From assembly GCA_041665625.1 (NCBI GenBank), contig JBAYIK010000004.1:26503-90502 (forward strand): a DNA stretch of 64,000 nucleotides, given 5' to 3'. Both the position numbers and the translations under genes were made by a program. The stretch comes from Minisyncoccota bacterium. GTDB taxonomy: Bacteria > Patescibacteriota > Minisyncoccia > Phycocordibacterales > XYD1-FULL-46-19. The notes under the pieces are model-generated. The model was not told the DNA's origin and made no database searches. It was given only the letters and a program-made list of their open reading frames with translations. Of this stretch, positions 31,197-44,940 are shown in pieces (positions within the stretch are counted from its first letter, which is position 1; the number at the start of each line of letters is the position of its first letter).

Positions 31197-31278
31197 GATC
31201 TCTTTCCTCTCATTCCATCTTTGTTTTTGTGTACCTGCCGGCATCAACCGGTATGGCACGTCACGTTGCTTGTGCCGG

Positions 31279-32013: not shown

Positions 32014-32016
32014 GAT

Positions 32017-32568
32017 TTATATATGAACCTTAGGAACTGGTTTGCGGGGAGATCCACCGGGCATATTGATGAGATACTTGCGAGGATTCTCAGAGAGATC
32101 TAAGAAGTCGTCCGCAATTTCACGCAATTTCCCGGAGGAACTTTTGCCGAAGGCAATGACTTCTACTTGAGCGCCCATATTTTCTTTAAGATATTCAACT
32201 AACGGGACAAAGTCTCCGTCGCCGGAGCCGATGATGACAGTGTCTAACTTAGGGGCAAGCTTGATGGCATCTACGGCCAAGCCCACATCCCAGTCAGCTT
32301 TCTTGGAGCCATCGACGAAGATTTGGAGATCCTTGGTTTTGACTTCAATACCAATTTTACCAAGGGCTTCAATAAAATTCTTCTCGTCCCCGGCTTCGGT
32401 TGTGACCATATAGGCCATTGCCCGGATAAGTTGGCGACCACCTAAAGCATCTTTTAATACTTGGCCGAAGTTAACGCGAGCGCCACCATAGAGATTCTTG
32501 GCACTATGATAGAGGTTTTGGGTGTCGATAAAAATGCCGACACGCTGGTTCTTATGTTTGATACTCAT
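32017..32568 (-). CDS. NYN/LabA-like (PIN-fold) domain protein.
   Basis: Motifs VGIFIDTQNL, DWDVGLAVDAI and IGSGDGDFVPLV, typical of LabA/NYN. Confidence 0.7.
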   Translation of the reverse strand: MSIKHKNQRVGIFIDTQNLYHSAKNLYGGARVNFGQVLKDALGGRQLIRAMAYMVTTEAGDEKNFIEALGKIGIEVKTKDLQIFVDGSKKADWDVGLAVDAIKLAPKLDTVIIGSGDGDFVPLVEYLKENMGAQVEVIAFGKSSSGKLREIADDFLDLSENPRKYLINMPGGSPRKPVPKVHI

Positions 32569-32683
32569 AAAAAATTATTAATTAATGAAACTTATAAAAA
32601 TTGCTTACTCTAAGTAATCGAGTAAATAGAGAAAACTATCTTGATTTTAAACCAAGATCAATACAAAAGAAAGGAAGAAAAAA

Positions 32684-32932
32684 TTAAGCAGCCGCTTTGA
32701 GTTCAGCTTTACGCTTTTGGGCGTCAATATAGCGCTGATGAGAACGGCGATCAGAGACAAGTTTAAGTAGTCCACGACGAGAGTGGAAATCTTTTGGGTT
32801 TTTCTTAAGGTGGCTGGCGAGTTCCTCAATTCTTTCGGTAATCAAAGAAACTTGCACTTCGGCCGAGCCGGTGTCTTTGTCATGCTTCTGGACCTTTTTG
32901 ATAATGGTCTCTTTCTTTTTTGTTGAAATCAT
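32684..32932 (-). CDS. rpsO: 30S ribosomal protein S15.
   Basis: Motif DTGSAEVQV...HSRRGLLKLV. The start was set at the second Met (MISTKKK) because the -10 element lies inside the longer ORF. Confidence 0.85.
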   Translation of the reverse strand: MISTKKKETIIKKVQKHDKDTGSAEVQVSLITERIEELASHLKKNPKDFHSRRGLLKLVSDRRSHQRYIDAQKRKAELKAAA

Positions 32933-32941
32933 GGTGTCGTT

Positions 32942-32970
32942 AGTATAGCACACGCCCTAAAATAATGCAA
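32942..32970 (-). promoter_or_regulatory. Promoter for rpsO, TTGCAT-17-TATACT, giving a leaderless or very short leader.
   Basis: The minus strand reads TTGCAT, 17 nt, TATACT, then 9 nt before the ATG. Confidence 0.45.
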
Positions 32971-33037
32971 CCCCCACACCAACTTTTGCATTATTGGGTT
33001 TTGCGCTTTTATCGCGATGTAAAAGTTGGTGTGGGGG
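32971..33037. promoter_or_regulatory. Long hairpin of 21 bp with one G-U or mismatch and a 25-nt loop. It lies at the junction of the high-GC block and rpsO and is probably a terminator or insulator.
   Basis: CCCCCACACCAACTTTTGCAT pairs with ATGTAAAAGTTGGTGTGGGGG. Confidence 0.5.
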
Positions 33038-33137
33038 CATGCCCCCTTGTGTTGAGCATAAGAAAGGGGCCCATACTGCTGTCACGTGGTCGTGGCTAGC
33101 GCGTAGGGCCCCAGGGGGAAGAGAAACGAGAACGGTG

Positions 33138-34190
33138 TTACCACCAGAAGCTGAATCGTGCCTCAATCTTGACCGGGCTTTCCATCCCCAGGTCTTGTTT
33201 TGATGAGGCGATGGTTTTCACCGCGTCGAGGGTCAAGGTTGTTGTCCTCTTCTGGTCGAGCCAGAAGCGGAGTCCGGCGGTGGCATTGACCTCGTAACCA
33301 GTCGCACTCTGCAGGGTGACCCGGTCTATTGAGATCTCGCCTTTGTCTGACACACTGAACTGTGTTTCCTCCCAGCTTTTGGCTTGGAGGCTCCACCAAT
33401 CTATCATCCCATGAATTTCAACTCGCGGGAGGGGTTCCCAGGCGGCGAGCGTATAGCCCCCGACCAAGTCACTCGTCCTGGAGTCGTTCATGGCGAAGTA
33501 GATAGCACTCCTTAGGTACAAGTTTTCTGCCAGCGCCGCGTTGGCGTCAATGGCAAAACGTTTGTAATCCTCGGAGCACTGGAGTGTGCCGGCAAGCCAA
33601 CTTTTGCCGAAGTTCTTCTGGAGTCGGGCTGAAACTTCCAACCCTCTCCAGTTCTCTTCGCTATCGAAGGGCACTACCGAGCGCCCACCGACGTCGGCCA
33701 TGATCAGCCAGCCGTCCTCGTCTTTTGACGAATACTCAACTTGTGCACCCCAGATGAAACTTCCCGTGGGGTCACAATTCGGGTACGAGACGGTCTCGTT
33801 CAATGCAGCGATGGGGGTGGTGAAACCTCCAGCGGCAAAGAATCTCCCGACTCGGAGCTTCCAGTTCTCATCGACTTTGTACCAGGCGTTGGCCAGCATC
33901 AAATAATTTTTGCTGGTTTCTTCCTGGAACTGGGCGAAGTTGATCAGGAGCTCTGTCCCCCACCGGCCGGACTTCCCGGTTAGGTTGGAGGAAAGACGGA
34001 AGTTTGTCAGCGAGAGGTCTCGCTGTCCGTCTGTTGAGTACCCATAGGCCTGGACCAGTCCGCGCAGCTTGAGCTTTGCGAACCCCAGGTCCATTGAGTG
34101 GACGAGGCCGGGTTCGTTCTCTTGCCCCATTGCGCTAGCCACAATTGCCAGCAGACAAAACACAAACGCCAAGATCATAGACTTCTTCAT
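33138..34190 (-). CDS. Signal-peptide protein with an aromatic C-terminus (..RFSFWW). It looks like an outer-membrane beta-barrel (porin-like) protein.
   Basis: Signal peptide with cleavage site ASA-MGQ. Alternating beta-strand-like pattern. Terminal aromatic residues. High GC. Confidence 0.4.
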   Translation of the reverse strand: MKKSMILAFVFCLLAIVASAMGQENEPGLVHSMDLGFAKLKLRGLVQAYGYSTDGQRDLSLTNFRLSSNLTGKSGRWGTELLINFAQFQEETSKNYLMLANAWYKVDENWKLRVGRFFAAGGFTTPIAALNETVSYPNCDPTGSFIWGAQVEYSSKDEDGWLIMADVGGRSVVPFDSEENWRGLEVSARLQKNFGKSWLAGTLQCSEDYKRFAIDANAALAENLYLRSAIYFAMNDSRTSDLVGGYTLAAWEPLPRVEIHGMIDWWSLQAKSWEETQFSVSDKGEISIDRVTLQSATGYEVNATAGLRFWLDQKRTTTLTLDAVKTIASSKQDLGMESPVKIEARFSFWW

Positions 34191-34194
34191 GGTT

Positions 34195-35538
34195 CTATCC
34201 TTCCGTAACTGTTGCCAGTCCGGAAAGACAAAGCGTTGTGCTTGTCTGATTTTTCCGAACTAGCGCACTAATCGGCGGACCACGCGGTTTCACCGCGTTC
34301 CAGCTGAAACGCTGGAGCGGTTGCGTGATCTCTCGGAATTCTCCCTCTTCACTTTCCACATCCCCAGTCTCTTCGACCGGAGCCGTAAGGATTGCAAAGA
34401 CTTTGAACTCCTTATGAAGTGGCACCCACCTTGCGGTGCTTGCCACTTTTTCTTCGTCAGTTATCTTGTTGACGAGAGGAGCTTCGGCGACACAGGCGAC
34501 AATAGTGGGCTGCAGGGTGTCGGCGTTTCCTCTGATGTGGAACCCGAACAAAATCCCCATTACCCAAACCATGGCACAAACCGCGACCGATTGCTTCAAG
34601 ACTTGACCAGAGGCTAGGAAGGACTCCAATGCTTCATTGAAAGCAAGTAGCGGTTCTTCGACCTGACGCAGGATTGCTTGTCTCTCTGCTTCGTTCAACC
34701 TGTAGCCGAACTCTTTCCCTGACAAGTATTCTCGCTCCAATTTCTTGAAGCGGTAGGCCTTGCCAGTAGCGTTGTCCATGACGATGAACCCGATCGGGCC
34801 ACAGAGCGTGGCCTTGAGGAAGACCATTGGGCGGAGCATGAGCTCTTCCCTTAGTTTCTTCCCCGCGTACCTGATGTCCAAGAGAACAATCAGTAGAAAT
34901 GGCAAGGTCATTAACCAATACCACTTCATGCTTGTCCTGACTGCCCACCAGAATGCTCGGCCAAGGGAGCCATCGTCGTAGGCCTTACCTAGGGCCCCGT
35001 TTTCCCCGTCTCTTTCGGCGACGGCTTCACGGCACTCGTCTTCGAAGGCTTGCATCGCACAGATCTGTCTCGCTGTTTCGGTCCTTATTTCCCCTCGGAA
35101 ATCTGGGCCGGGTTGCCAACGTTCTATGTAGCTCTTTCTGATCAGGCTGTCCTTTCCCCAAACTGATTCATACGAGACCATGAAGCCCAGCTTGATCTTC
35201 AGCTGGTCGCTTCTCCAAGAAGCTTGAAGCATCTCTTTGACAGAGACACCCCCCTTCTCGATACCCTCCTGGATTCTTTGCTTGAGGACAAGGAACTCAT
35301 CTTCGGCTCTCTCTCGTTCGGGTGTTCCTTGGAGCAGGACGGGAGAATCCTCAAACTTGAGTTTCCCAATCCAGTCCCAGTTTCCGCCCAGCATGAGAGT
35401 TAGAACGATGAGCCCGGCGGAGATCAGCTTCTGCCCCCAGGGCATCTTACTGATCTTTGTTTCTAGCCGGCTCGGTTCGGTCGGTTGGTAGTTTCTACGT
35501 CGTCTGTACTCGAATTGTTCGTAGTACATTTCTTTCAC
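34195..35538 (-). CDS. Membrane protein of unknown function, GC-rich.
   Basis: 447 aa. Ribosome-binding site AGGAGGTG upstream and a TTGACA -35 element. Several transmembrane helices. Confidence 0.45.
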   Translation of the reverse strand: MKEMYYEQFEYRRRRNYQPTEPSRLETKISKMPWGQKLISAGLIVLTLMLGGNWDWIGKLKFEDSPVLLQGTPERERAEDEFLVLKQRIQEGIEKGGVSVKEMLQASWRSDQLKIKLGFMVSYESVWGKDSLIRKSYIERWQPGPDFRGEIRTETARQICAMQAFEDECREAVAERDGENGALGKAYDDGSLGRAFWWAVRTSMKWYWLMTLPFLLIVLLDIRYAGKKLREELMLRPMVFLKATLCGPIGFIVMDNATGKAYRFKKLEREYLSGKEFGYRLNEAERQAILRQVEEPLLAFNEALESFLASGQVLKQSVAVCAMVWVMGILFGFHIRGNADTLQPTIVACVAEAPLVNKITDEEKVASTARWVPLHKEFKVFAILTAPVEETGDVESEEGEFREITQPLQRFSWNAVKPRGPPISALVRKNQTSTTLCLSGLATVTEG

Positions 35539-35667
35539 CTCCTTTCGTTACGAATTTTCTCGTTTTTCTTGTCAAAGACCGAATCTCAACCGACAGGGTT
35601 GAGTTTGTGTACTCTGCATTTCTGGCATAAATTATGTAGTTTGTCAATATCAGAAAATTAAACTCAA

Positions 35668-35696
35668 GGGTCGCCGGCGACAGGCGCGGGCGACCC
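35668..35696 (-). terminator. GC hairpin (GGGTCGCC pairing with GGCGACCC) directly after a stop codon.
   Basis: An 8-bp stem. A moderate U-rich tract follows on the minus strand. Confidence 0.35.
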
Positions 35697-35697
35697 T

Positions 35698-36093
35698 TTA
35701 TCTGGCAAGTTTCCCCCTTTTTCTTTTGCTTTTCTTCCTCTTGAAATCAAGGAGAACCTTGCCGGACTCAATTGCCTTCTCTGGAGTGTACGGTCCGAAG
35801 CGAAGTGGAGAAATTGTCTCCCGGAGAAGGACTCTCCCATTCCTACCGATATACTCGATGGAACGCTTTTCCCCGTTGCATGGCCAGACGATCCAGAGTG
35901 GCTCTCCCCACCACTTCCTTATCTCGCTGAGCCCTTCTTCCCAGTCGTGTCTGTTGTTGGGGATAATGACGATCAAGTCACCCTTGATAAGGGCTAGACA
36001 ATTAAAAAGATCAGGAACGTGGTCGTCCATGTCAATTGGCCCTTTCCTAGGGGTTGTGTTATTTGAAATTGAGAACTTTCTGGTTATTAACAT
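35698..36093 (-). CDS. Hypothetical protein, GC-rich.
   Basis: 131-aa ORF with a basic C-terminal tail. Confidence 0.4.
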   Translation of the reverse strand: MLITRKFSISNNTTPRKGPIDMDDHVPDLFNCLALIKGDLIVIIPNNRHDWEEGLSEIRKWWGEPLWIVWPCNGEKRSIEYIGRNGRVLLRETISPLRFGPYTPEKAIESGKVLLDFKRKKSKRKRGKLAR

Positions 36094-36110
36094 GACATTT
36101 TTGCCTTGCT

Positions 36111-36140
36111 ACGTCAATAAAAAAGACCCGTGTCGTGGGT
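36111..36140 (-). terminator. Intrinsic terminator that closes the hammerhead-punctuated operon.
   Basis: The minus strand reads GACCC-ACGACAC-GGGUC followed by UUUUUUAUU. Confidence 0.45.
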
Positions 36141-36194
36141 CTTACGGCTCATTTATTATCCAGTCGAGCTTCTGGTTTCTGCCACAGCAGAGGG

Positions 36195-36605
36195 TTAGCG
36201 GAGGTCAAGGAGAAGCCACGCTTCAGCGATCATGTCTGGCTGGAATTCTTCGTGAATCCAGACAGCTTCCTCGCTGATGTGGCCGCCACCCATTCCTCCC
36301 GGGATGTGGTTTAGGTCTGTCGCCGGGTCGCAGTCGAATTCAGCGATCTGCTGGGTTATTGCACTCGGCGAGTAGATGTAGATGCTACTTCCCTCCCCCT
36401 CGTTGCAATCCCAGGCCACGTCATCGAGCTTGCGTGAGAGAGTGAGAATGCGGGCTCTCGGTCCGATCAGCGAGAGAGGAACGGTCAAGTAAATCTGACC
36501 ACCCCAATCACCTTCGAAGATGAGCCACCAATCAGTGAAGACGCTCTCTCGCGCCTGCTGGCAGAAACTGGTCAGCACAGCTTGCTCATGTGCGAGCGTC
36601 TTCAT
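36195..36605 (-). CDS. Hypothetical protein: cargo ORF d of the hammerhead array.
   Basis: 136 aa. AAAGGG ribosome-binding-site-like sequence about 30 nt downstream of HHR1. Confidence 0.45.
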   Translation of the reverse strand: MKTLAHEQAVLTSFCQQARESVFTDWWLIFEGDWGGQIYLTVPLSLIGPRARILTLSRKLDDVAWDCNEGEGSSIYIYSPSAITQQIAEFDCDPATDLNHIPGGMGGGHISEEAVWIHEEFQPDMIAEAWLLLDLR

Positions 36606-36637
36606 AGCGAACCCTTTCGGTTAGTTAAAGATCAATC

Positions 36638-36690
36638 CGTTTTCGCTCTTTTGAGCTCATCAGTCGAGACACACATCTCGAGAACGGGGC
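36638..36690 (-). ncRNA. Hammerhead ribozyme, type III (HHR1).
   Basis: The minus strand reads CCCCGUUC^UCGAGA-UGUGUG-UCUCGA CUGAUGAG CUC-AAAA-GAG C GAAA ACGG. The full catalytic core (CUGAUGA...GAAA) is present. Stems I and II are capped by loops, and stem III is open. Confidence 0.7.
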
Positions 36691-36742
36691 CCAATTTGAT
36701 ATCTGGTTGGGCTTCCAGGTTATAACGCTTCGGGTTTCTCAT

Positions 36743-37171
36743 TCACTCCTTCCACCGGAAGGTGGGCCTATCACTAGGCAGTTCGTATTCGGGGTGCAAT
36801 TCCTGAAATTCTTGGAATTGATAGATATAACACCCCGGAGCCATCCCGGGAATGTCATCGGGTCCAAAAGACCCTTTCTGTTTCGCCCCGGTTGTGGAGA
36901 ACTGGAGAACGAGCTTGGCGTGATCTTCTTGGAGTTCGATGTCCAAGAATTTCTCCCAGTTGACGTGGGAACAGTCGCAGGGAACAACGACACAATTATA
37001 CGTGTGCAGCTCCCGGCAATATTCCTCGCCCAAATGGTTTCCCCATTGCTCTCTCCAATTGTCCATTAGCAACAAATGGGAGTGCCCAGCCAAGCAGATC
37101 TCCACCATCTCCACGCCGCCGTTTGAACACGCGCCACTTCTGTCCCACTGCACGACTTGGGCCTTCATGAT
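36743..37171 (-). CDS. Hypothetical Cys/His-rich protein: cargo ORF c.
   Basis: The start was set at MKAQ, which has an AAAGGAG ribosome-binding site 7 nt upstream. An A9 tract lies just 5' of the ribosome-binding site. Confidence 0.45.
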   Translation of the reverse strand: MMKAQVVQWDRSGACSNGGVEMVEICLAGHSHLLLMDNWREQWGNHLGEEYCRELHTYNCVVVPCDCSHVNWEKFLDIELQEDHAKLVLQFSTTGAKQKGSFGPDDIPGMAPGCYIYQFQEFQELHPEYELPSDRPTFRWKE

Positions 37172-37584
37172 GTTTCTCCTTTTTTTTTGCGATATAAAGA
37201 ACAACTCCCCTGTGAAAGTACGACACATGTCGCGCTCTCAATAAGGGAGTCGATTTTTTTAGGATCGACTCAAAAACTTGCGATTGATTGCCCTACCTGA
37301 CGAGCAACCTGGCGTCCCTTGGGTGTCCCGCACTCTCCCGGACCCATGTTCTGGGAAGGAGTCCTTTCGGAGGAAACGTGCAACCATCTCTTTGTTTGTT
37401 ACGGGTTGTTGTGCTGCCGTATCAGAGGAGATTGGCTGTCCAGTCAGAGAGGGTGCTAGCAGCCCTCGTGGACAAGACGGCGGGGTTAAGGAATTAGCCA
37501 TTCACTTTATTATCGACAGCTTTTGTGGCATATCGACGCGGGTGACTTACCGTGACCTCACGTGCTATGGGGATCGCCTACTCC

Positions 37585-37629
37585 CTGCACCGATTTATTT
37601 TCCAAAACTGAAAGACAAATCGGTGCAGG
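37585..37629 (-). promoter_or_regulatory. Conserved 12-bp-stem hairpin accompanying HHR2.
   Basis: CTGCACCGATTT, a 21-nt loop, then AAATCGGTGCAG. Confidence 0.5.
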
Positions 37630-37654
37630 CAATCGCTTTAATTTAAAGAACAAT

Positions 37655-37709
37655 CCGTTTTCGTCATTTCTGACTCATCAGTCGAGACACACATCTCGAG
37701 AACGACGCC
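37655..37709 (-). ncRNA. Hammerhead ribozyme, type III (HHR2).
   Basis: The minus strand reads GGCGUCGUUC^UCGAGA-UGUGUG-UCUCGA CUGAUGAG UCA-GAAA-UGA C GAAA ACGG. Stem II covaries relative to HHR1. Confidence 0.75.
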
Positions 37710-37741
37710 AATTTTATCCAGATTGGCAAACTGGGCCACGG

Positions 37742-38134
37742 TTACCCGGTGCCGAACACTCGAACACTAATGCGCTCGCGTTCGGTCTCTGTTCCGTGGG
37801 CCACCCCAAGCAGGAAGACCTGCGTGAGAAGGCGTTCGAGGGCTGCACCAGCGCTTTCATCGTCAGCACTGGCGGTGCGGGCAACGGCGGCGACCAAGTC
37901 TTCGCCGGGGTTGTAATCCCTTTCCACTTTGCCGAACGCCGGCTCGTGGCACAGGATAACTTCCCCGTCGGTTTCCTTGGCGTACTCTTCACGGCTTACA
38001 CCGATCAAGTACAGGCCAACCTTGCTGTCGACCTGGGACGCAAGAACGTACAACATATCTCCCCCTTTCTTGGTGGTTTGTTGTGTCTGGCTTGCCCGAT
38101 TCATCGGCACGTCATTGTTCGGCAACATCCCCAT
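37742..38134 (-). CDS. Hypothetical protein: cargo ORF b.
   Basis: 130-aa ORF. Its stop lies about 40 nt upstream of the HHR2 cleavage site. Confidence 0.45.
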   Translation of the reverse strand: MGMLPNNDVPMNRASQTQQTTKKGGDMLYVLASQVDSKVGLYLIGVSREEYAKETDGEVILCHEPAFGKVERDYNPGEDLVAAVARTASADDESAGAALERLLTQVFLLGVAHGTETERERISVRVFGTG

Positions 38135-38640
38135 GACCTATCCCCCCCCTCTTTGTTTGTAAAGATCAAACTCCTCAGGAAACACGAGACTATCTCACAT
38201 TCCCATTAAGAGGGCCGAGTCAGGAGGACTCGGCCGAGATGAGAACCAACCATTATTTTTCTTCTGGGTTGGCCAGACTTTGTCGACAGTGTAGGCTATT
38301 CTCTTTTTACCTACCGTCCCAGGAGAGTCCTTGCCGAAGGGATAATGCATGGCCAACTCGTCGCCCTCTGATTTTTATTTCTCCCGATTATTAAATCAGA
38401 TGGGTTGTGCAGTGAGAGGTATCTCTCGGGCTCGTCAGACCCATTCAGCCCTCCTTGACGGAGAAGGGTTGTCCTTCCTGTTGGGTGCTCCCAACATTTT
38501 GGAAGTTAGAGTTTGGGGACTTACCGACACAGAGCGGATCGTGGCCTTTTGGCGACGATAAAACCGCTGGCGGACTTACTCCCTCCACCGGGTAGACCTC
38601 AGCCTACCCCAGAGTAGGTTGCTCGGGTACCTGCACGCAC

Positions 38641-38686
38641 CTGCAACGATTTATTTTTGATGTTAATCAAACGCAAATCGTTGCAG
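38641..38686 (-). promoter_or_regulatory. Conserved 12-bp-stem hairpin accompanying HHR3.
   Basis: CTGCAACGATTT, a 22-nt loop, then AAATCGTTGCAG. The C-to-A and G-to-T changes relative to the copy at 37585 preserve pairing. Confidence 0.5.
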
Positions 38687-38702
38687 GCGCAAATTCAAGG
38701 AT

Positions 38703-38757
38703 CAAACTGTTTCGTCCTTCCGGACTCATCAGGGAGAGAAGATACCCTCCGACAGTT
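38703..38757 (-). ncRNA. Hammerhead ribozyme, type III (HHR3).
   Basis: The minus strand reads AACUGUC^GGAGGG-UAUCUU-CUCUCC CUGAUGAG UCC-GGAA-GGA C GAAAC AGUU. This is a textbook minimal-plus-loops hammerhead. Confidence 0.8.
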
Positions 38758-38786
38758 ACCGGAAGGGGTTGAACCTTCCGGCTGGA

Positions 38787-38936
38787 CTACCTCGCGCTCC
38801 CTACTGGGTTGACGAGAATCCGTTTTTCGAACACCTGTTGGGATGGGTCAACAGAACCCTTGGGCCGGCCAGCCCAGGTAAATCCGGCCTTGCGCAACAT
38901 TTGGGTTGCGACTTTCTCCGCTTCCTTCTGGCTCAT
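38787..38936 (-). CDS. Small ORF a of 49 aa, the first gene of the hammerhead array.
   Basis: GGAG sequence 8 nt upstream of the ATG. Translation is MSQKEAEKVATQMLRKAGFTWAGRPKGSVDPSQQVFEKRILVNPVGSAR. Below the 60-aa threshold of the ORF track. Confidence 0.3.
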   Translation of the reverse strand: MSQKEAEKVATQMLRKAGFTWAGRPKGSVDPSQQVFEKRILVNPVGSAR

Positions 38937-39070
38937 GGATAATTCTCCTTTGGGCTGTGCCCGGTTTGGAATCCATTCCCTTCTGAGCCGCCAGACTGTA
39001 TTACTTGCTGGCTAGCTCGGAAGGAAACAGATTCACTTACCTTTCCCCTCTTTCAAGGTATCTGCTAGGC

Positions 39071-39098
39071 ATTATACTCAGAATCAGAAGTTTGTCAA
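39071..39098 (-). promoter_or_regulatory. Consensus sigma70-like promoter (TTGACA-16-TATAAT) driving the hammerhead-punctuated operon.
   Basis: The minus strand reads TTGACA (39098-39093), 16 nt, then TATAAT (39076-39071). Confidence 0.5.
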
Positions 39099-39370
39099 GT
39101 GCTTTTGACATAAAAACAAAAGTCATCACTTCGTACCCACAAAATATGGCTATAAATAAGAATATTTAGACATCATGATTTTGATAAAGTATAATGACAT
39201 TACTTAAAAACAAGTTTGTCAAAACAATTTTTATTTAAATTTTGTTTAAAATTTTTGACGCATGTCTTTTCTAAAAATATTTGAGAAGAACACAAAACTC
39301 TTATTTTTCAACAAATCTTTGCCAAAATAACAAAAATATGGCCTAAAATAAGCCATTTTGTTGAAACTAC

Positions 39371-39399
39371 TTGACAAACTCTTGCGGTCTGCTATACTT
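39371..39399 (+). promoter_or_regulatory. Consensus-like promoter TTGACA-17-TATACT.
   Basis: TTGACA at 39371-39376 and TATACT at 39394-39399. Confidence 0.5.
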
Positions 39400-39406
39400 A
39401 CACCGT

Positions 39407-39770
39407 ATGTTCTTTTGACTTTATCGTTCCCAACCAGAAGGAGGGTTTGCCATGACTGACTAGGTCGGCGCTTGAGCGTCGCCAGCTAGCCCTATCATGG
39501 CGGCTAGCTGGCGATGTTCTAGGCCCAAAGCTAGTCAAAACCTGAATTCCTGGGGCGTAACGTAAAGTGAGTCTGGAGAGTGTTTTTGCCCAAACCAAAG
39601 GAGGATCCTGAAATGGGCGACTAGGGCCGGACAGAGACCATGATTGGTCGAGATTGATCGAGGGTAACCTGGGGATACATTCCCCACGCTGCCAATTGGT
39701 AGCAGAAGAGCAAGCAAAAGGGGCCTAGCGCAGTCGTTACGACGACAAGCGGAGGCCCCAATCTTTTTTC
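39407..39770 (+). ncRNA. Candidate structured non-coding RNA of about 360 nt. Unassigned family.
   Basis: No plus-strand ORF. GC-rich relative to its flanks. A perfect 11-bp hairpin (GCCAGCTAGCC pairing with GGCTAGCTGGC) and several other stems. Ends with GGGGCCU...AGGCCCC followed by UCUUUUUU. Confidence 0.4.
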
Positions 39771-39775
39771 TCAAA

Positions 39776-40522
39776 TTATTTCTTTAGTTTATCAAAAGCT
39801 AAGCTAAAAAGGCTTCTCATCGTGTCAGCAAAGTCTTTGTTTGTTATAGAGATTGCCCCAATCTTCTTCCCCAGGATATTTATTTTTACTTTATTCTTGT
39901 AAATGGCAATGTCACAACTTAGGGGATATTTATCTTGTTCGATTTTTATTCTTTCACTTGTATTGTCACTTGGGCGGCTAGTTTTTTCTGAGGTATATAA
40001 GACTTTATTTTTTACATTTTTACCTAATCTTATTTCCCTTAGCTGGGTTAATTCTTTTTCTGTAAATGTTTCGTCAATGAGGTCTTTGGGATAAATTAAA
40101 TAAGAAATCCCCTCTTTGTCTTCAGAACTAAAGAAGTCCTGCATTGAGCTTATTATTCCTTCTCTTCCTTCAAAGTATTTTACTACCGGTCTCTCCCCGC
40201 TCTCGCGTTGGATGCTCTTGAGTTGAGGGATAATGTCAGTTAGACGTTTGGAATTCTCTTCTAAGACAACCTTCTGGCGCTCGATAAAAGATTCTAATCT
40301 CTCTGGCGGCTCGGCTTGGTAATGAGTTTTTTTATCGACTTGAATTTCACTCACTAAGCCCTTCTTGGCCAGTGTTTCTAACACTGGGTAAATGGTCGTG
40401 CGGTTTACCTTTGTTTTGTTGGCTAATTCAACGACTGAGGCGCTGTCATATTGCAAGAGAGCCACATAAACTTCGGCTTCTTTATTTGATAATCCAATTT
40501 GCTCTAAGTATTTTTCAAACAT
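39776..40522 (-). CDS. TrmB-family HTH transcriptional regulator.
   Basis: N-terminus LSNKEAEVYVALLQYDSASVVELANKTKVNRTTIYPVLETLAKKGLV, a winged-helix motif of the TrmB type. Confidence 0.7.
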   Translation of the reverse strand: MFEKYLEQIGLSNKEAEVYVALLQYDSASVVELANKTKVNRTTIYPVLETLAKKGLVSEIQVDKKTHYQAEPPERLESFIERQKVVLEENSKRLTDIIPQLKSIQRESGERPVVKYFEGREGIISSMQDFFSSEDKEGISYLIYPKDLIDETFTEKELTQLREIRLGKNVKNKVLYTSEKTSRPSDNTSERIKIEQDKYPLSCDIAIYKNKVKINILGKKIGAISITNKDFADTMRSLFSLAFDKLKK

Positions 40523-40642
40523 AGTTAGATTATATCACATCTGTCAATTTGTTTTAACAAACTTTTCCTTGCCAGACCCCAAGAGGTCCCGAGGTCCGGC
40601 GGATGTCGCAAAATATTTTGGGAATCTGATATAATTATATCG

Positions 40643-41623
40643 ATGGCCGATTTAAATAGACTTAAACAAGAATTCTTGGAGTATCTCGAGATTGAGAAGG
40701 GGCGCTCGCTTAAGACGGTAGAGAATTATGATCGCTATTTGATAAGATTTTTTACTCAATCTGAGGCCAAATCCCCTTCTGACATAACTGATGACGCTGT
40801 TCGGCAATATCGTTTATGGCTTAATCGGCAATCTTCTTTTAACCATACTTCTTCTAACAAAGACGGCCGAATTTCTCGTGCCGGGAGCAAGAATAGCAAT
40901 GATAATCTCAAGAAGAACACTCAGAACTATCACTTAATTGCTCTTAGGGTTTTTCTTAAATACCTTGCTCGTCGCTCTGTCCCCTCTTTGCCCCCAGAGA
41001 AGATAGAGCTCGCCAAGACGGCTGGTCGTGATCTCGACTTGATTACTGACATTGAACTCAAGAGGCTAATAGATATGCCCAATAAGGAGAAAATTGGCAC
41101 GGGCAAGAATGATCAGGTAAAAATATTGCGGGATAAGGCGATGCTTGAACTCTTTTTTTCTACTGGTTTGCGTGTCTCAGAACTTTGTTCTCTTGACCGC
41201 GATACTATAAATTTAGCCCGTGACGAGTTCTCTATCAGGGGTAAAGGAGAGAAAGTTCGTTTAGTCTTCCTCTCCGACAAAGCCCGTGATGCGATCAAAG
41301 AGTATTTAGCTAAGCGCAAAGATATGGATGAGGCTTTGTTTACAAGTCTGTCCGAAATTAATAAAACCAAGGGAAGTGACAGGCTCACTTCGAGGAGTGT
41401 CGAGAGAATAATTAAGAAATACGCTATTAAGGCGGGTATTACCAAGAAGGTAACTCCCCACACTCTTCGTCACTCCTTTGCCACTGATCTCTTGCAGAAT
41501 GGGGCAGATATTCGCTCTGTCCAGATGATGTTGGGGCACTCAAGCGTCTCGACGACCCAGATCTATACTCACGTGACAGATAAACATCTTAGAGATATAC
41601 ATAAGAAATTTCATACTAATTAG
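40643..41623 (+). CDS. xerC: XerC/XerD-family tyrosine site-specific recombinase.
   Basis: C-terminal HTLRHSFAT...LGHSSVSTTQIYTHV (R-H-R-Y catalytic motif region). Spacing matches XerC, with no IntI-specific insert. Confidence 0.85.
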   Translation: MADLNRLKQEFLEYLEIEKGRSLKTVENYDRYLIRFFTQSEAKSPSDITDDAVRQYRLWLNRQSSFNHTSSNKDGRISRAGSKNSNDNLKKNTQNYHLIALRVFLKYLARRSVPSLPPEKIELAKTAGRDLDLITDIELKRLIDMPNKEKIGTGKNDQVKILRDKAMLELFFSTGLRVSELCSLDRDTINLARDEFSIRGKGEKVRLVFLSDKARDAIKEYLAKRKDMDEALFTSLSEINKTKGSDRLTSRSVERIIKKYAIKAGITKKVTPHTLRHSFATDLLQNGADIRSVQMMLGHSSVSTTQIYTHVTDKHLRDIHKKFHTN

Positions 41624-43585: not shown

Positions 43586-43658
43586 GCCCCGATAGTTCAA
43601 TGGATAGAACGACGGTCTTCGGAACCGTTGATGTGGGTTCGACTCCTGCTCGGGGCAC
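43586..43658 (+). tRNA. tRNA-Arg(UCG).
   Basis: Hand-folded cloverleaf. Acceptor stem GCCCCGA pairing with TCGGGGC. Anticodon loop CTTCGGA. The T-stem has two wobble pairs. Confidence 0.6.
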
Positions 43659-43668
43659 TAATCTTTGA

Positions 43669-43752
43669 GAGCATGTGGCGGAATTGGTATACGCGTACGC
43701 TTCAGAAGCGTATGGAGTGATCCTTGGGAGTTCGAGTCTCCCCATGCTCACC
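43669..43752 (+). tRNA. tRNA-Leu(CAG), with a long variable arm.
   Basis: Acceptor stem GAGCATG pairing with CATGCTC. The D-arm TGGCGGAATTGGTATACGC is Leu-like. Anticodon loop TTCAGAA. Confidence 0.7.
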
Positions 43753-43816
43753 TTCTGTGATTTGAACTTTTTGTATTTTTTTGTTATTATTCAAAAGCTA
43801 GTTAGAGGTGCTGCGA

Positions 43817-43849
43817 GCCACGTTAGAGGCTCTCAAGTCTCTAACGTGG
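43817..43849 (+). promoter_or_regulatory. Conserved 5' leader hairpin abutting tRNA-Gly(GCC).
   Basis: CCACGTTAGAG(GCT), a loop, then (AGT)CTCTAACGTGG. A paralogous copy lies upstream of tRNA-Gly(UCC) at 51059-51092. Confidence 0.5.
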
Positions 43850-43922
43850 CGAGTATGGTTTAGTGGTAGAACACGTCCTTGCCAAGGATGAGACGGGAGT
43901 CCGATTCTCCCTACTCGCACCC
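43849..43922 (+). tRNA. tRNA-Gly(GCC).
   Basis: Acceptor stem GCGAGTA pairing with TACTCGC. Anticodon loop TTGCCAA. T-loop TCCGATT. Confidence 0.75.
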
Positions 43923-43923
43923 A

Positions 43924-44077
43924 CGCCAATATTCTCATCGTCGCGAATGAATTCGCGACAGCTTTGCTGTAATGAGAATATTGGCGTGGGTGCTCGCACC
44001 CCTACCTATCCCCATCTCGACGAATATATTCATGACCTCTTTGCTGTAATGAGAATATTGGCGTGGGCGCTCGCACT
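43924..44077. repeat. Repeat cluster immediately 3' of tRNA-Gly. It contains a 13-bp perfect inverted repeat and a 38-bp direct repeat with one mismatch. The direct repeat contains a copy of the tRNA-Gly 3' end (CTCGCACCC).
   Basis: CCAATATTCTCAT pairs with ATGAGAATATTGG. The sequence CTTTGCTGTAATGAGAATATTGGCGTGGG(T/C)GCTCGCAC occurs at 43961 and at 44040. Confidence 0.6.
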
Positions 44078-44303
44078 TACGTATAGAACTTTCTTAAGAT
44101 TTTGCCTAAAACCCTACAAACTGTGGATAAGTCCGGGGTATAAGTGGATAAAAGACATCCCATAGACTAAGAGATATTCTTATAGAAAACAGGGCAAAAA
44201 GCAAGAATATCCTTATTTTACAACATATTTTAGCCAAAAGTCGTCTTTAAAAGTAGTTTTTTATAGAACTGACCAATAGTGTTTCTTAAGAAACAGGTTC
44301 CAC

Positions 44304-44732
44304 ATGGCACAGGTACCTAAAAATAAGACCCAAAAGCAGATTACGGGGCAAATAGGGGAGGATGAAGCGGCAAAATACCTTAAAAACAAGGGTTTTTCTG
44401 TCCTTGACCGTAATTATCGCAAACCTTGGGGCGAATTGGACATTGTTGCCAAGAAAGGGGAGTGGCTCTATTTTATGGAAGTCAAAACTGTGACCCGGGC
44501 GACCTCCGAGGCTAGCCCCCAAATTCCCCGAGGACTAGCCTCGGGAGACTCTTATGAGCCCGAAGACAATATCCACCCGTGGAAAATCAAGCGCTTATCT
44601 CGCGCTATCAATACTTATCTCTTAGAGAAAAAGATTGATGATGAGACCGACTGGCAAGTCGATTCTATTGCTGTTTACCTCAATAATAGGGGAGAGCTCC
44701 TCAAAATTGAACATTTGGAGGATATTTTCTGA
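44304..44732 (+). CDS. yraN: YraN/UPF0102-family predicted endonuclease.
   Basis: Motif GEDEAAKYL...LDRNYRKPWGELDIVAKKGEWLYFMEVKT. Confidence 0.7.
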   Translation: MAQVPKNKTQKQITGQIGEDEAAKYLKNKGFSVLDRNYRKPWGELDIVAKKGEWLYFMEVKTVTRATSEASPQIPRGLASGDSYEPEDNIHPWKIKRLSRAINTYLLEKKIDDETDWQVDSIAVYLNNRGELLKIEHLEDIF

Positions 44733-44867
44733 CTTTGGAGAAGTCAGCCCTGCTAAGCCTTGGCGAAGCGGGGGATTATATGCTAAGATATGACGGTAAC
44801 CTTAATCGCCTACGCGAAAACTCAGCGGGCTTTGCCACGCCGTAGATTCGCTCCGGCGAATCGAAGG

Positions 44868-44939
44868 CGGGGTGTAGTGCAACGGCTAGCACGAGTCCTT
44901 TGGGAGGATTTAATCCGAGTTCGAATCTCGGCACCCCGA
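44868..44939 (+). tRNA. tRNA-Pro(UGG).
   Basis: A C1-G72 acceptor pair, typical of bacterial tRNA-Pro. Anticodon loop TTTGGGA. T-arm CCGAG-TTCGAAT-CTCGG. Confidence 0.7.
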
Positions 44940-44940
44940 C

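What the first reader, a model, noticed from the sequence alone, without database searches (positions are those of the whole stretch)
39371..39775. Unassigned structured-RNA candidate of about 360 nt with its own consensus promoter and intrinsic terminator
A TTGACA-17-TATACT promoter at 39371-39399 is followed by about 360 nt that lacks any plus-strand ORF longer than 12 codons. The segment is clearly GC-richer than the AT-rich flank. It contains a perfect 11-bp hairpin (GCCAGCTAGCC pairing with GGCTAGCTGGC at about 39494-39525) and several further stems. It ends in a GC hairpin (GGGGCCU...AGGCCCC) plus UCUUUUUU at about 39716-39775. It lies tail-to-tail with a TrmB-family regulator and about 300 nt from the divergent promoter of the hammerhead operon. 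The size is compatible with RNase P RNA, tmRNA or a novel sRNA. The canonical RNase P P4 motifs and the tmRNA ends could not be recognised by eye.
Basis: seen in the sequence. Interest (0 to 1): 0.6.

Follow-up and report, generated by a model that had tools for sequence, protein, structure and literature searches.

The report
Small RNA carrying two three-codon genes
This is a real, conserved small RNA gene of Parcubacteria (tiny uncultured bacteria) whose only conserved sequence is a pair of ribosome-binding sites, each followed by a three-codon Met-X-Asp mini-gene and a stable hairpin, so it most resembles the CRISPR-linked "CreT" RNA toxins that jam translation, except that here it sits beside a protein repressor rather than CRISPR.

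Summary
Window 39404-39769 (+) is a stand-alone, highly structured RNA gene of about 366 nt. It has a near-consensus promoter and an intrinsic terminator. It matches no Rfam family and is not RNase P RNA or tmRNA.

Homologues lie beside the same TrmB-like regulator gene in about 25-30 Parcubacteria loci. The gene is convergent with the regulator in most loci and lies upstream on the same strand in some.

Across these loci the helices change sequence completely. What persists is one or, usually, two units of Shine-Dalgarno + AUG + a 3-5-codon mini-ORF, with a stable hairpin after the first unit.
- In the window's clade the mini-ORF is Met-X-Asp-stop.
- Both Asp codons and all three stop codons are used, and codon 2 varies freely.
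- The two mini-ORFs of one RNA usually end in the same residue (D/D, G/G, R/R, S/S, P/P).

A palindrome, TTGTCA-N7-TTGACA, overlaps the -35 box of the RNA promoter. It recurs at the promoter of the regulator gene and at the promoter of the neighbouring hammerhead-ribozyme operon.

Best reading (about 0.5): a repressor-gated RNA that acts on the translation machinery through its mini-ORFs, like CreT RNA toxins but outside any CRISPR context. No expression or toxicity data exist.

The parts
39358..39376 (.). Palindromic operator-like site TTGTTGAAACTACTTGACA. It differs by 2 mismatches from TTGTCA-N7-TTGACA. Its right half is the -35 box of the RNA promoter.
   Evidence: The same palindrome overlaps the -35 of the RNA promoter in most homologous loci and is perfect in L010, L024 and L037-39.
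39371..39398 (+). Promoter of the RNA: TTGACA, 16-nt spacer, TGcTATACT (extended -10).
   Evidence: (11/12 match, TG present). The promoter is conserved in 16 of 17 loci checked. The transcription start near 39404-39406 is inferred.
39404..39437 (+). 5' leader. Positions 39418-39431 can pair with 39552-39568 to form the basal helix of the 5' domain.
   Evidence: MFE prediction. The segment CGTTCCCAACC is conserved in L003 and L005. The pairing is predicted and was not tested by covariation.
39438..39444 (+). Shine-Dalgarno 1 (AAGGAGG), 7 nt upstream of the AUG.
   Evidence: A strong SD lies upstream of mini-ORF1 in all 25 loci tabulated. L015 and L016, which were not tabulated there, lack it.
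39452..39463 (+). Mini-ORF 1: ATG ACT GAC TAG (Met-Thr-Asp-stop).
   Evidence: The Met-X-Asp-stop pattern is conserved with free variation at codon 2, both GAC and GAT for Asp, and all of TAG, TAA and TGA as stops.
39443..39448 (+). 5' strand of helix P1a (GGGTTT, the end of the SD plus spacer). It pairs with AAAACC at 39537-39542.
   Evidence: helix 2: 6 pairs, 2 with compensatory changes, 91.7% of cells paired.
39457..39463 (+). 5' strand of helix P1b (TGACTAG, the Asp and stop codons). It pairs with CTAGTCA at 39531-39537.
   Evidence: helix 3: 7 pairs, 3 with compensatory changes, for example L006 CUGAA/UUCAG where the stop codon is UGA.
39471..39522 (+). Apical hairpin P2, with 21-nt arms and a perfect 11-bp core at 39481-39491/39502-39512. 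It starts 8 nt after the stop codon of mini-ORF 1.
   Evidence: I2., helix 5: 16 pairs, 5 compensatory; a hairpin of 12-31 bp follows mini-ORF1 in most homologues, and its sequence is unrelated between clades.
39531..39568 (+). 3' strands of P1b, P1a and the basal helix. This segment pairs with the stop and Asp codons and with the end of SD1 and its spacer.
39598..39604 (+). Shine-Dalgarno 2 (AAGGAGG), 8 nt upstream of the AUG.
39613..39624 (+). Mini-ORF 2: ATG GGC GAC TAG (Met-Gly-Asp-stop).
   Evidence: A second mini-ORF is present in most homologues and usually ends in the same residue as the first.
39625..39719 (+). 3' domain of several short hairpins. Its sequence is poorly conserved.
   Evidence: fold; not alignable to L003, L005 or L006 by blastn.
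39720..39769 (+). Intrinsic terminator: GGGGCCU...AGGCCCC followed by AAUCUUUUUU. Read on the opposite strand, the same hairpin is followed by TTTTGCTT, so it probably also terminates the convergent trmB-like gene.
   Evidence: (-25.6 kcal/mol). Homologues all end in a comparable terminator. The bidirectional role is inferred from the sequence.
39776..40522 (-). TrmB-family winged-helix regulator gene (248 aa), the conserved partner of the RNA.
   Evidence: Pfam PF01978, E = 1.2e-16. It lies next to the RNA in two different arrangements.
40541..40560 (.). Third copy of the palindrome (TTGTTAAAACAAATTGACA on the minus strand, 1 mismatch). It sits just upstream of the trmB-like start and overlaps that gene's promoter, TGATATAAT.
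   Evidence: The same position is occupied in L003, L004 and L006.
39071..39110 (-). Perfect promoter (TTGACA-16-TATAAT, 39098..39071) of the divergent hammerhead-ribozyme operon. A perfect palindrome, TTGTCAAGTGCTTTTGACA (39092-39110), lies over its -35 box.

Best explanation
Window 39404-39769 (+) encodes a small RNA of about 366 nt. Its working parts are two translation-initiation modules: a strong Shine-Dalgarno, an AUG and a three-codon Met-X-Asp ORF. The first module is followed by a very stable hairpin.

**Proposed mechanism.** The RNA acts through ribosomes that load on these mini-ORFs. Repeated or stalled translation of the tiny ORFs ties up components of the translation machinery. 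The candidates are ribosomes or their anti-SD end, or tRNA-Asp held as short peptidyl-tRNA. The result is a brake on protein synthesis, as shown experimentally for CreT small RNA toxins and for phage lambda-type toxic minigenes.

**Proposed control.** Transcription is gated by the adjacent TrmB-like winged-helix protein. It would bind the palindrome TTGTCA-N7-TTGACA over the -35 box of the RNA promoter. The same palindrome occurs at the protein's own promoter and at the promoter of the neighbouring hammerhead-ribozyme operon. Helix P1 pairs the end of SD1 and the Asp and stop codons with a downstream segment, which would further limit ribosome loading on the finished transcript.

**Shown:** the gene anatomy, its conservation, codon-level conservation of the mini-ORFs, covariation in P1 and P2, the operator-like palindromes and the gene linkage.

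**Inferred:** that the mini-ORFs are translated, that the TrmB-like protein binds the palindromes, and that the outcome is inhibition of translation.
For: 1. **Real, structured RNA.** z = -7.9 on the + strand. Homologues give z = -4.3 to -11.4. In the four-sequence alignment, 35 pairs are 92% paired. Thirteen pairs carry compensatory changes, against 5.3 +/- 1.8 in shuffles and 1-4 in slid controls.

2. **The SD + mini-ORF motif is specific.** GGAG-N5-12-ATG-NNN-GAC-TAR occurs twice in the 64-kb window, both times in this RNA, against 0.04 expected.

3. **Codon-level conservation in homologues**.
 - ATG is invariant and codon 2 is free (T, G, Q, P, S, N, I, F, W, A, E, D).
 - The Asp codon is GAC or GAT, and the stop is TAG, TAA or TGA.
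 - SD-to-AUG spacing is in the functional range.
 - L015, L016 and mini-ORF2 of L004 keep the mini-ORF without an SD.

4. **Matching end residues.** The two mini-ORFs of one RNA usually end in the same residue:
 - D/D in 12 loci;
 - G/G in L031, L045 and L074;
 - R/R in L037-39;
 - S/S in L009 (MFDS, MTDS);
 - P/P in L014 (MEDP, MNDP).

 Synonymous codons are used (UCC/UCG, CCU/CCG).

5. **Only SD + mini-ORF aligns across clades.** The hairpin that follows is kept as structure only.

6. **Experimental precedent for this architecture.** SD, an efficient start codon, a mini-ORF and a downstream stable hairpin are each required for CreT RNA toxicity (PMC8501985; bioRxiv 10.64898/2026.06.02.729485; PMC10097628). 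The P. aeruginosa CreT uses non-rare Pro codons and arrests translation in vitro. CreT genes are kept silent by a DNA-bound repressor at their promoter.

7. **Operator.** The palindrome with <=1 mismatch gives 32 hits in 125 kb of loci, where roughly one is expected (my estimate). All but one have the 7-nt spacing. Those whose position I checked lie at the RNA promoter, the operon promoter or just upstream of trmB. The composite of operator, -10 box and SD-mini-ORF was recovered automatically in 20 of 82 loci; one of these, L008, was a false mini-ORF call, although that locus has a real one.

8. **Linkage to the trmB-like gene.** It survives a change of arrangement: convergent in L003-L019, tandem upstream in L022-L026.

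9. **Host genes almost lack SDs.** None of 28 host genes has a GGAG-type SD. The two AAGGAGG-AUG modules are therefore exceptional ribosome-recruiting sites in this genome.
Against: - There is no expression, ribosome-binding or toxicity evidence of any kind.
- Each mini-ORF has one conserved Asp codon. It does not have the two consecutive same-amino-acid codons that are required in the three codon-dependent CreT toxins read here.
- Asp is common (5.4% of codons) and GAC is not rare (304 GAC against 432 GAT in host ORFs). The rare-tRNA logic of the archaeal CreT therefore does not apply.
- The anti-SD motif was detected in only 48% of Parcubacteria 16S rRNAs (PMC9297842), and this organism's genes lack SDs. 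Whether AAGGAGG can act as an SD here is unverified, because no 16S rRNA gene lies in the window.
- The module sits in conserved synteny across trmB-like genes that have diverged to about 35% identity. No relative of the regulator was found in IMG/VR. This looks like a vertically inherited regulator rather than a mobile toxin-antitoxin pair.
- The operator at the RNA promoter in this window has 2 mismatches.
- The clade L023/L025/L026 has only one mini-ORF, and L007 has an extended second ORF.
Confidence: 0.5

Rival explanations
1. Ribosome-occupancy sensor, in the manner of a leader peptide. Ribosomes pausing on the Asp codon or at the stop report Asp-tRNA supply or translation capacity. A paused ribosome holds helix P1 open and so changes the RNA's conformation. 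The output would be read-through of the terminator, giving antisense to trmB in the convergent layout and sense in the tandem layout, or exposure of a trans-acting segment.
For: - The Asp and stop codons of mini-ORF1 and part of SD1 lie in helix P1, which shows covariation. Translation and folding are therefore mutually exclusive.
- The shared last residue of the two mini-ORFs would fit sensing of a single amino acid.
- In L022-L026 the RNA lies directly upstream of trmB on the same strand.
Against: - In the window and in most loci the strong terminator is followed by a convergent gene, so no cis-regulated gene lies downstream.
- Read-through would have opposite effects on trmB in the two layouts.
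- In the tandem loci trmB keeps its own -10 box after the terminator.
- I found no antiterminator pairing conserved between the window, L003 and L005. That comparison was made by eye on the sequences.
- A single regulatory codon per ORF is unlike known attenuators.
Confidence: 0.15
2. A base-pairing or protein-sponging small RNA. In this reading the SD and mini-ORF units only protect the transcript from 5'-end-dependent decay, in the manner of STAB-SD or 5'-stabiliser elements. The regulatory activity would lie elsewhere in the RNA.
For: - Strong SDs, and ribosomes bound at a mini-ORF near the 5' end, stabilise transcripts in Gram-positive bacteria and in E. coli (review PMC3997798).
- The hairpin of P. 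aeruginosa CreT mainly maintains RNA levels.
Against: - Outside the SD + mini-ORF units, no sequence is conserved across clades that could serve as a seed or binding site.
- The RNA has no perfect complementarity of >=12 nt to anything else in the 64-kb window.
- A stabiliser role does not explain the conserved Asp codon, the in-frame stop at codon 4-5, or the matching last residues of the two mini-ORFs.
Confidence: 0.15
3. The products matter. The formyl-Met-X-Asp tripeptides, or their lineage-specific equivalents, would be made in quantity and serve as ligands for the effector domain of the adjacent TrmB-like regulator. This would be a ribosome-made signal paired with its receptor gene.
For: - Conservation is at amino-acid level. 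Synonymous Asp, Ser and Pro codons are used, and the two mini-ORFs of one RNA share their end residue.
- Tight linkage to a regulator with a C-terminal domain of about 140 residues and unknown function.
- From general knowledge, peptide and receptor genes are typically adjacent in RRNPP-type systems.
Against: - The middle residue is unconstrained and differs between the two ORFs of one RNA.
- I know of no precedent for unprocessed tripeptide signals.
- No export or processing functions are evident.
- In CreT systems the mini-ORF peptides were shown not to be the active agent.
Confidence: 0.07
4. A divergent housekeeping RNA (RNase P RNA, tmRNA or 6S RNA) that standard models fail to recognise in this phylum.
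For: - The size of about 366 nt, the high degree of structure and the strong promoter fit such RNAs.
Against: - No Rfam match even at E<=10, and none in 27 homologous loci.
- ARAGORN finds no tmRNA.
- The helices are not conserved in sequence between clades, unlike the catalytic cores of RNase P.
- The only conserved elements are translation signals.
Confidence: 0.02

Closest known systems
CreT small RNA toxins of CreTA modules: Haloarcula hispanica (Arg AGA AGA), Halobacterium hubeiense (Ile AUA AUA), Pseudomonas aeruginosa 'proline-codon toxin', and the Acinetobacter CreT
   Same: Both are short transcripts from a strong promoter. They carry a strong SD, an efficient AUG, a mini-ORF of a few codons and a stable GC-rich hairpin just downstream. 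In CreT all of these are needed for toxicity. In both, the promoter is overlapped by a repressor target site, homologues show very low sequence conservation outside the mini-ORF, and the amino acid used differs by lineage.
   Different: - There is no CRISPR array in the window and no CreA-like guide. The presumed repressor is a TrmB-like protein.
- This RNA usually has two tandem SD-mini-ORF units instead of one.
- Each unit has one conserved codon (Asp) rather than two consecutive identical-amino-acid codons.
- The Asp codon is not rare.
- The RNA is 4-8 times longer, with an extra 3' domain.
- SD1 and mini-ORF1 are partly sequestered in a conserved helix.
- The module looks vertically inherited in Parcubacteria.
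- Toxicity is untested.
Toxic minigenes: phage lambda bar regions, synthetic 2-8-codon minigenes, and the axe-txe minigene
   Same: Both combine a strong SD with an ORF of two to a few codons. In minigenes the effect depends on the last sense codon, whose tRNA is trapped as peptidyl-tRNA after drop-off (abstract listings of PMC2490762 and PMC8708949, plus general knowledge of this literature). That dependence would explain why both mini-ORFs of one RNA share their last residue.
   Different: The lambda bar minigenes are incidental features of other transcripts, and they are toxic mainly when peptidyl-tRNA hydrolase is limiting. Here the mini-ORFs are the conserved core of a dedicated, separately regulated RNA gene.
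Leader-peptide attenuators and arrest peptides (trpL, ermCL, cat-86 leader, TnaC)
   Same: Both have a short translated ORF whose ribosome occupancy competes with an RNA helix that contains the end of the ORF.
   Different: In most layouts no downstream gene lies in cis. These ORFs have only 3-5 codons, too short to act in the exit tunnel. The RNA ends in a strong terminator that faces a convergent gene.
STAB-SD and 5'-stabiliser elements (cryIIIA, ermC leader)
   Same: Both place a strong SD near the 5' end of a transcript, in organisms with Gram-positive-type RNA decay.
   Different: A stabiliser role does not require a start codon, a conserved Asp codon, an in-frame stop or a second copy 160 nt downstream.

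Membership tests
CreT-type mini-ORF RNA toxin | Strong Shine-Dalgarno motif or equivalent strong initiation signal | tested here: met
   AAGGAGG lies 7 nt and 8 nt upstream of the two AUGs and is conserved in most homologues. Whether this organism's 16S rRNA carries an anti-SD could not be checked.
CreT-type mini-ORF RNA toxin | Efficient start codon opening a mini-ORF of a few codons | tested here: met
   ATG plus 2 sense codons plus a stop, present twice. Homologues have 3-5 codons, all starting with ATG except one GTG.
CreT-type mini-ORF RNA toxin | Two consecutive codons for the same (rare, or Pro) amino acid inside the mini-ORF | tested here: not met
   The window has a single Asp codon per mini-ORF (MTD, MGD). 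Asp is not rare. Consecutive identical codons occur only in a few relatives: L015 MDD, L016 MDD..., L031 and L074 MGG.
CreT-type mini-ORF RNA toxin | Stable stem-loop downstream of the mini-ORF, conserved as structure rather than sequence | tested here: met
   P2 at 39471-39522 starts 8 nt after the stop. It shows compensatory changes, and homologues carry hairpins of unrelated sequence.
CreT-type mini-ORF RNA toxin | Promoter repressed by a Cascade-CreA complex, with the gene located inside a CRISPR-Cas locus | tested here: not met
   TRF finds no repeat array in the 64-kb window. The neighbours are a TrmB-like regulator, a XerC-like recombinase and the ribozyme operon. A protein-type palindromic operator overlaps the -35 box instead. 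The remaining ORFs of the window were not scanned against Cas models.
CreT-type mini-ORF RNA toxin | Growth arrest on expression, relieved by mutating the SD, AUG, codons or hairpin, or by supplying the tRNA | not testable with these tools
   This needs expression experiments.
Bacterial RNase P RNA | Match to the RNase P covariance models, including the conserved P4 and CR-I to CR-V core | tested here: not met
   No hit at gathering score or at E<=10. No hit in homologous loci either.
tmRNA | tRNA-like domain plus a tag reading frame that lacks an SD and AUG | tested here: not met
   ARAGORN finds only six tRNAs in the window and no tmRNA. There is no Rfam tmRNA hit. The short ORFs here have an SD and an AUG.
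Leader-peptide transcription attenuator | Regulated gene immediately downstream on the same strand, with alternative terminator and antiterminator helices | tested here: not met
   The terminator at 39720-39769 is followed by the 3' end of a convergent gene. I saw no conserved antiterminator pairing when comparing the window, L003 and L005 by eye.
Trans-acting base-pairing sRNA | A conserved single-stranded seed complementary to target mRNAs | tested here: inconclusive
   No conserved sequence outside the SD + mini-ORF units. No perfect complement of >=12 nt in the window. Targets elsewhere in the genome could not be searched.

The most novel reading that the evidence does not exclude
Parcubacteria carry an ancient, vertically inherited 'translation brake' RNA with CreT-like architecture (SD, mini-ORF, hairpin). 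It would be gated by a signal-sensing TrmB-like repressor instead of CRISPR-Cas, making it the first RNA of this architecture found outside CRISPR control. Host genes in this genome are essentially SD-less or leaderless. The two perfect SD-AUG modules could therefore specifically capture SD-competent ribosomes or tRNA-Asp. That would shift the balance between leaderless host translation and SD-led translation of the co-regulated hammerhead-ribozyme operon.
Probability: 0.3. Interest if true: 0.85.

Novelty: new variant of a known kind. Interest (0 to 1): 0.72.

Why it matters
- **Scope of the mechanism.** Small RNAs that act by being translated at a tiny ORF are so far described only as CRISPR-guarded toxins. 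A conserved family in the Candidate Phyla Radiation, paired with an ordinary transcription factor, would show that the principle is more general and older. It could be a growth- or dormancy-control device in bacteria with minimal regulatory repertoires.
- **Testable predictions.** The finding gives concrete handles for organisms that cannot be cultured: three operator sites, a candidate regulon that includes a ribozyme-punctuated operon, and defined point mutations at the AUG, SD, Asp codon and hairpin. All can be tested in cell-free systems.
- **Annotation.** ORFs of three codons are invisible to gene callers and to 'non-coding' RNA screens alike, so elements of this type are easily missed.

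Tried and rejected
- **Rfam.** Searched the whole window at gathering thresholds and 39000-40000 at E<=10. Only chance-level miRNA, snoRNA and lncRNA matches appeared.
- **ARAGORN.** No tmRNA.
- **Phage genomes.** BLASTN of the RNA in distant mode gave no match.
- **Exact-protein look-up of TrmB.** It returned only identical copies of the locus.
- **Covariance model R1.** Built from the four closest sequences, it reaches only L007 (40 bits) and, weakly, L008 and L011, even with filters off. A hit in L005 at 3496-3612 lies inside a small membrane-protein ORF and is spurious.
- **MAFFT + RNAalifold on L010, L011, L013 and L019.** This failed because only the SD + mini-ORF aligns. Family-wide covariation statistics could therefore not be computed. 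Structure conservation beyond the closest clade rests on per-sequence folds.
- **Opposite-strand coding.** The minus-strand ORFs of 66 and 79 aa overlapping the RNA are not convincingly conserved: 15 of 35 identities with a gap, within the palindromic P2 region.
- **Target search.** RNAduplex against translation-initiation regions gave only long, unspecific duplexes. There are no perfect complements of >=12 nt.
- **Antiterminator idea.** CUAGGCCC at 39517-39524 against the terminator arm was rejected because it is not conserved in L003 or L005.
- **T4 gene-60-type bypassing.** Hopping from GAC UAG plus the hairpin to the second GAC UAG was considered. It was dropped because landing there meets a stop codon again.
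- **CsrA-type sponge.** Considered and dropped because it does not explain the AUG, the Asp codon or the stop codon.
- **Operon proteins.** Pfam, PHROGs and PADLOC gave nothing for them.
- **IMG/VR.** No relative of the regulator was found there.
Full report
**1. The observation**

- The promoter is TTGACA (39371-39376), a 16-nt spacer, then TGcTATACT (39390-39398). It scored 11/12 with an extended -10.
- The terminator is GGGGCCU (39720-39726) ... AGGCCCC (39753-39759) followed by AAUCUUUUUU ending at 39769. Its hairpin is -25.6 kcal/mol.
- GC content is 0.54, against about 0.28-0.33 in the flanks.
It is the core of 21-nt arms.
- The RNA folds far better than shuffled controls. The MFE is -162.8 kcal/mol against -118.6 +/- 5.6, z = -7.9; the opposite strand gives z = -3.75.
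- The statement about ORFs needs a small correction. ORFs of 22 and 24 codons exist, but they lack an SD, and the ATG one is not conserved in L003.

**2. What it is not**

Rfam 15 gives nothing. At gathering thresholds the whole window yields only six tRNAs. At E<=10 over 39000-40000 there are only chance-level eukaryotic miRNA, snoRNA and lncRNA matches. ARAGORN finds no tmRNA. None of 27 homologous loci has an Rfam hit on the RNA. RNase P RNA, tmRNA and the other curated families are therefore excluded as far as these tools can tell.

**3. Relatives**

The window comes from a Parcubacterium. The nearest GTDB genome is a Candidatus Vogelbacteria MAG (L003), whose TrmB-like protein is 72% identical. 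A metagenome scan with an alignment of the TrmB-like protein returned 80 loci.

In L003-L011 and L013-L019 an RNA gene of the same build lies downstream of the trmB-like gene and convergent with it, as in the window. In L022-L026 it lies upstream on the same strand, with its own promoter and terminator. More distant loci also carry it (L031, L037-39, L041, L042, L045, L074). No relative of the regulator was found in IMG/VR viral contigs.

The RNA evolves quickly in sequence. Only 171 of its 366 nt align to L003, at 76% identity, and nothing aligns to L006 by blastn. The flanking trmB gene aligns at 77% and the promoter-bearing intergenic region at 87.5%. All 18 extracted RNAs, the window's included, remain highly structured, with z = -4.3 to -11.4.

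**4. What is conserved**

Across clades MAFFT can align only one thing: a Shine-Dalgarno, 6-11 nt of spacer, ATG, one free codon, an Asp codon and a stop.

In the window this occurs twice:
- AAGGAGG-N7-ATG ACT GAC TAG (39438-39463);
- AAGGAGG-N8-ATG GGC GAC TAG (39598-39624).

These are the only two matches to the motif in 64 kb, against 0.04 expected. They are also the only two ATG-NNN-GAY-TAR in the window.

Mini-ORF peptides in relatives:

| Locus | Mini-ORF 1 | Mini-ORF 2 |
|---|---|---|
| window | MTD | MGD |
| L003 | MTD | MQD |
| L004 | MPD | MND |
| L005 | MSD | MND |
| L006 | MPD | MID |
| L010 | MSD | MGD |
| L011 | MND | MWD |
| L013 | MAD | MQD |
| L015 | MDD | MND |
| L019, L024 | MND | MSD |
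| L022 | MGSD | MPGD |
| L009 | MFDS | MTDS |
| L014 | MEDP | MNDP |
| L008 | MGGGD | MGDP |

Farther out the pairs are MGR/MNR (L037-39), MGG/MDG (L031, L074), MNG/MHG (L045), MNG/MGE (L041) and MNG/MGA (L042).

Both Asp codons and all three stop codons are used. In L009 and L014 the shared extra residue is written with different synonymous codons (UCC/UCG, CCU/CCG). L015, L016 and the second unit of L004 keep the mini-ORF without an SD. This pattern is the signature of selection on a reading frame, not only on an RNA helix.

By my count, the two mini-ORFs of one RNA end in the same residue in 18 of 23 RNAs that have two units. At least five different shared residues occur (D, G, R, S, P). 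These RNAs are phylogenetically related, so the number of independent events is smaller than 18.

**5. Structure**

In the four alignable sequences (window, L003, L005, L006) RNAalifold predicts a long irregular hairpin. It has three parts:
- Helix P1a pairs the end of SD1 and its spacer (39443-39448) with 39537-39542.
- Helix P1b pairs the Asp and stop codons (39457-39463) with 39531-39537.
- Helix P2 (39471-39522) is the apical hairpin.

Of 35 pairs, 92% of cells are paired. Thirteen pairs carry compensatory changes, against 5.3 +/- 1.8 in shuffles (0 of 500 reach the observed value) and 1-4 when the partners are slid. For example, where the stop is UGA in L006, the partner strand changes to match.

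In other clades a hairpin follows mini-ORF1 within about 0-30 nt, but its sequence is unrelated. Mini-ORF1 is thus subject to two overlapping constraints, coding and pairing, and its initiation region is partly sequestered in the finished transcript.

**6. Regulation**

A palindrome, TTGTCA-N7-TTGACA, occurs three times around the locus:
- perfectly over the -35 box of the divergent operon promoter (39092-39110);
- with 2 mismatches over the -35 box of the RNA promoter (39358-39376);
- with 1 mismatch just upstream of the trmB-like gene (40541-40560), overlapping its extended -10 box.

In 26 loci (125 kb) there are 32 sites with <=1 mismatch, where I estimate roughly one by chance. All but one have the 7-nt spacing. 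The sites whose position I checked lie at these same three kinds of promoter. A composite search for palindrome, -10 box and SD-mini-ORF recovers the module automatically in 20 of 82 loci; one of these, L008, was a false mini-ORF call, although that locus has a real one.

The adjacent winged-helix protein (Pfam TrmB, E = 1.2e-16) is the obvious candidate binder. That assignment is an inference from linkage.

**7. Context**

The divergent operon (39070 down to about 30000, minus strand) is GC-rich. It contains three type III hammerhead ribozymes between small ORFs that have no Pfam, PHROGs or PADLOC match. Hammerheads recur in the corresponding operon of L003, L004, L006, L007, L010, L013, L014 and L016. 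They were not seen in the available flanks of the distant clades. The invariant pair is therefore the regulator plus the RNA.

Host genes in the window almost never have an SD. None of 28 has a GGAG-type SD at any candidate start, and 7 of 28 have a -10-like box 3-16 nt upstream of the ATG, which suggests leaderless mRNAs. The two perfect SD-AUG modules of the RNA stand out against this background. The same fact is a caveat, because the anti-SD motif was detected in only 48% of Parcubacteria 16S rRNAs (PMC9297842), and no 16S rRNA gene lies in the window.

**8. Mechanism**

The combination of strong SD, AUG, a mini-ORF of a few codons and a stable hairpin has been shown experimentally to be necessary and sufficient for the activity of CreT small RNA toxins.
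- The haloarchaeal CreTs sequester a rare tRNA through two consecutive AGA or AUA codons (PMC8501985).
- The P. aeruginosa CreT uses two ordinary Pro codons and arrests translation in vitro. Its hairpin is needed as structure only (bioRxiv 10.64898/2026.06.02.729485).
- The Acinetobacter CreT depends on its SD, its start codon and a hairpin (PMC10097628).

All are silenced at their promoter by a DNA-bound complex. In the searchable literature, mini-ORF RNA toxins are described only in that CRISPR context.

The present RNA shares the SD, AUG, mini-ORF and hairpin architecture and the repressor-site-over-promoter logic. I therefore favour (about 0.5) the reading that it acts on the translation machinery through ribosomes loaded on its mini-ORFs, under control of the TrmB-like protein. 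The shared last residue of the two units fits the minigene rule that the tRNA of the last sense codon is the one trapped.

It fails two defining CreT features:
- It has no two consecutive same-amino-acid codons, and Asp is not rare.
- It has no CRISPR or CreA link.

It should therefore not be filed as a CreT. It is a variant that works on what looks like the same principle. Its wide, syntenic conservation suggests a regulated brake rather than an addiction toxin.

**9. Rivals**

- A ribosome-occupancy sensor of the leader-peptide type (0.15).
- An sRNA whose SD units merely stabilise it (0.15).
- Tripeptide signals for the regulator (0.07).
- A divergent housekeeping RNA (0.02).

The evidence for and against each is given in the Rival explanations section.

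**10. Verdict**

It is not an anonymous structured RNA. It is a conserved Parcubacteria RNA family, absent from Rfam, whose core is a pair of three-codon genes. All functional statements are inferences from sequence, and the decisive experiments are listed separately.

Noticed in passing
window 38704-38758, 37653-37707, 36635-36689 (minus strand): Three type III hammerhead ribozymes lie between small ORFs of the divergent operon. They score 46.8, 32.0 and 34.7 bits, just below Rfam's gathering score of 48.5, with E = 6e-8 to 9e-4. Equivalent hammerheads occur in the corresponding operon of L003, L004, L006, L007, L010, L013, L014 and L016. L004 has a second cluster at 1160-2880 with three hammerheads and a twister-P1 match (1461-1529, 51.5 bits).
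   Followed up: partly
window about 30000-39100: This block has 50-58% GC, against about 40-44% for the rest of the window. Its ORFs include a weak porin-like match (E=0.05, below Pfam's cut-off), an SPFH protein and several small proteins with no Pfam, PHROGs or PADLOC match. The block is 86% identical in DNA to L003, higher than the 77% of the flanking trmB gene. Four of the seven island ORFs checked have SD-like motifs, unlike host genes. Its origin, whether horizontal transfer or strong constraint, is unexplained.
   Followed up: partly
window, 28 host ORFs (e.g. 39776-40522, 40643-41623, 49907-50782): Host genes essentially lack Shine-Dalgarno motifs: none of 28 has a GGAG-type SD and two have TGAGGT. 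Seven of 28 have a TATAAT-like box 3-16 nt upstream of the ATG, which suggests leaderless mRNAs. TAA is the stop in 23 of 28, and TAG, the stop used by both mini-ORFs, in only 4.
   Followed up: partly
window 39071-39403: The AT-rich intergenic region is more conserved than the genes around it (87.5% identity to L003). It contains a second promoter-like site on the + strand (39167-39195, TAGACA-17-TATAAT). It also has a repeated element AAAATATGGCYWWAAATAAG (39141-39160 and 39333-39352) that recurs in many loci, and a terminator-like hairpin on the minus strand (39356..39338). There may be a further small transcript or further protein-binding sites here.
   Followed up: no
L017 3924-3935 (minus strand): The first mini-ORF reads ATG TGA GAC TAA. 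It is either a start-stop variant, a decayed copy, or a hint that TGA is read as a sense codon in that lineage. The genetic code of that contig was not checked.
   Followed up: no
L007 (second unit) and L003 6895-6903 (minus strand): Some second units have lost their stop. In L007, ATG TTC GAA... runs for 13 codons and begins like its first unit, ATG TTC GAT TAA. L003 has an extra ATG GGC GAC without a stop, 9 nt after its second mini-ORF. These look like traces of duplication and decay of the units.
   Followed up: no
window 32017-32568 (minus strand): An NYN-domain (LabA-like) nuclease gene (Pfam E = 7e-34; PADLOC NYN E = 1.6e-14) sits in a low-GC patch inside the GC-rich block.
   Followed up: no
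window 43586-44940, 48135-48207, 51091-51162: There are six tRNA genes: Arg-TCG, Leu-CAG, Gly-GCC, Pro-TGG, Pro-CGG and Gly-TCC. A XerC-like recombinase gene (40643-41623) lies beside the trmB-like gene, and the same order is seen in L001 and L002. No tRNA-Asp gene lies in the window.
   Followed up: no
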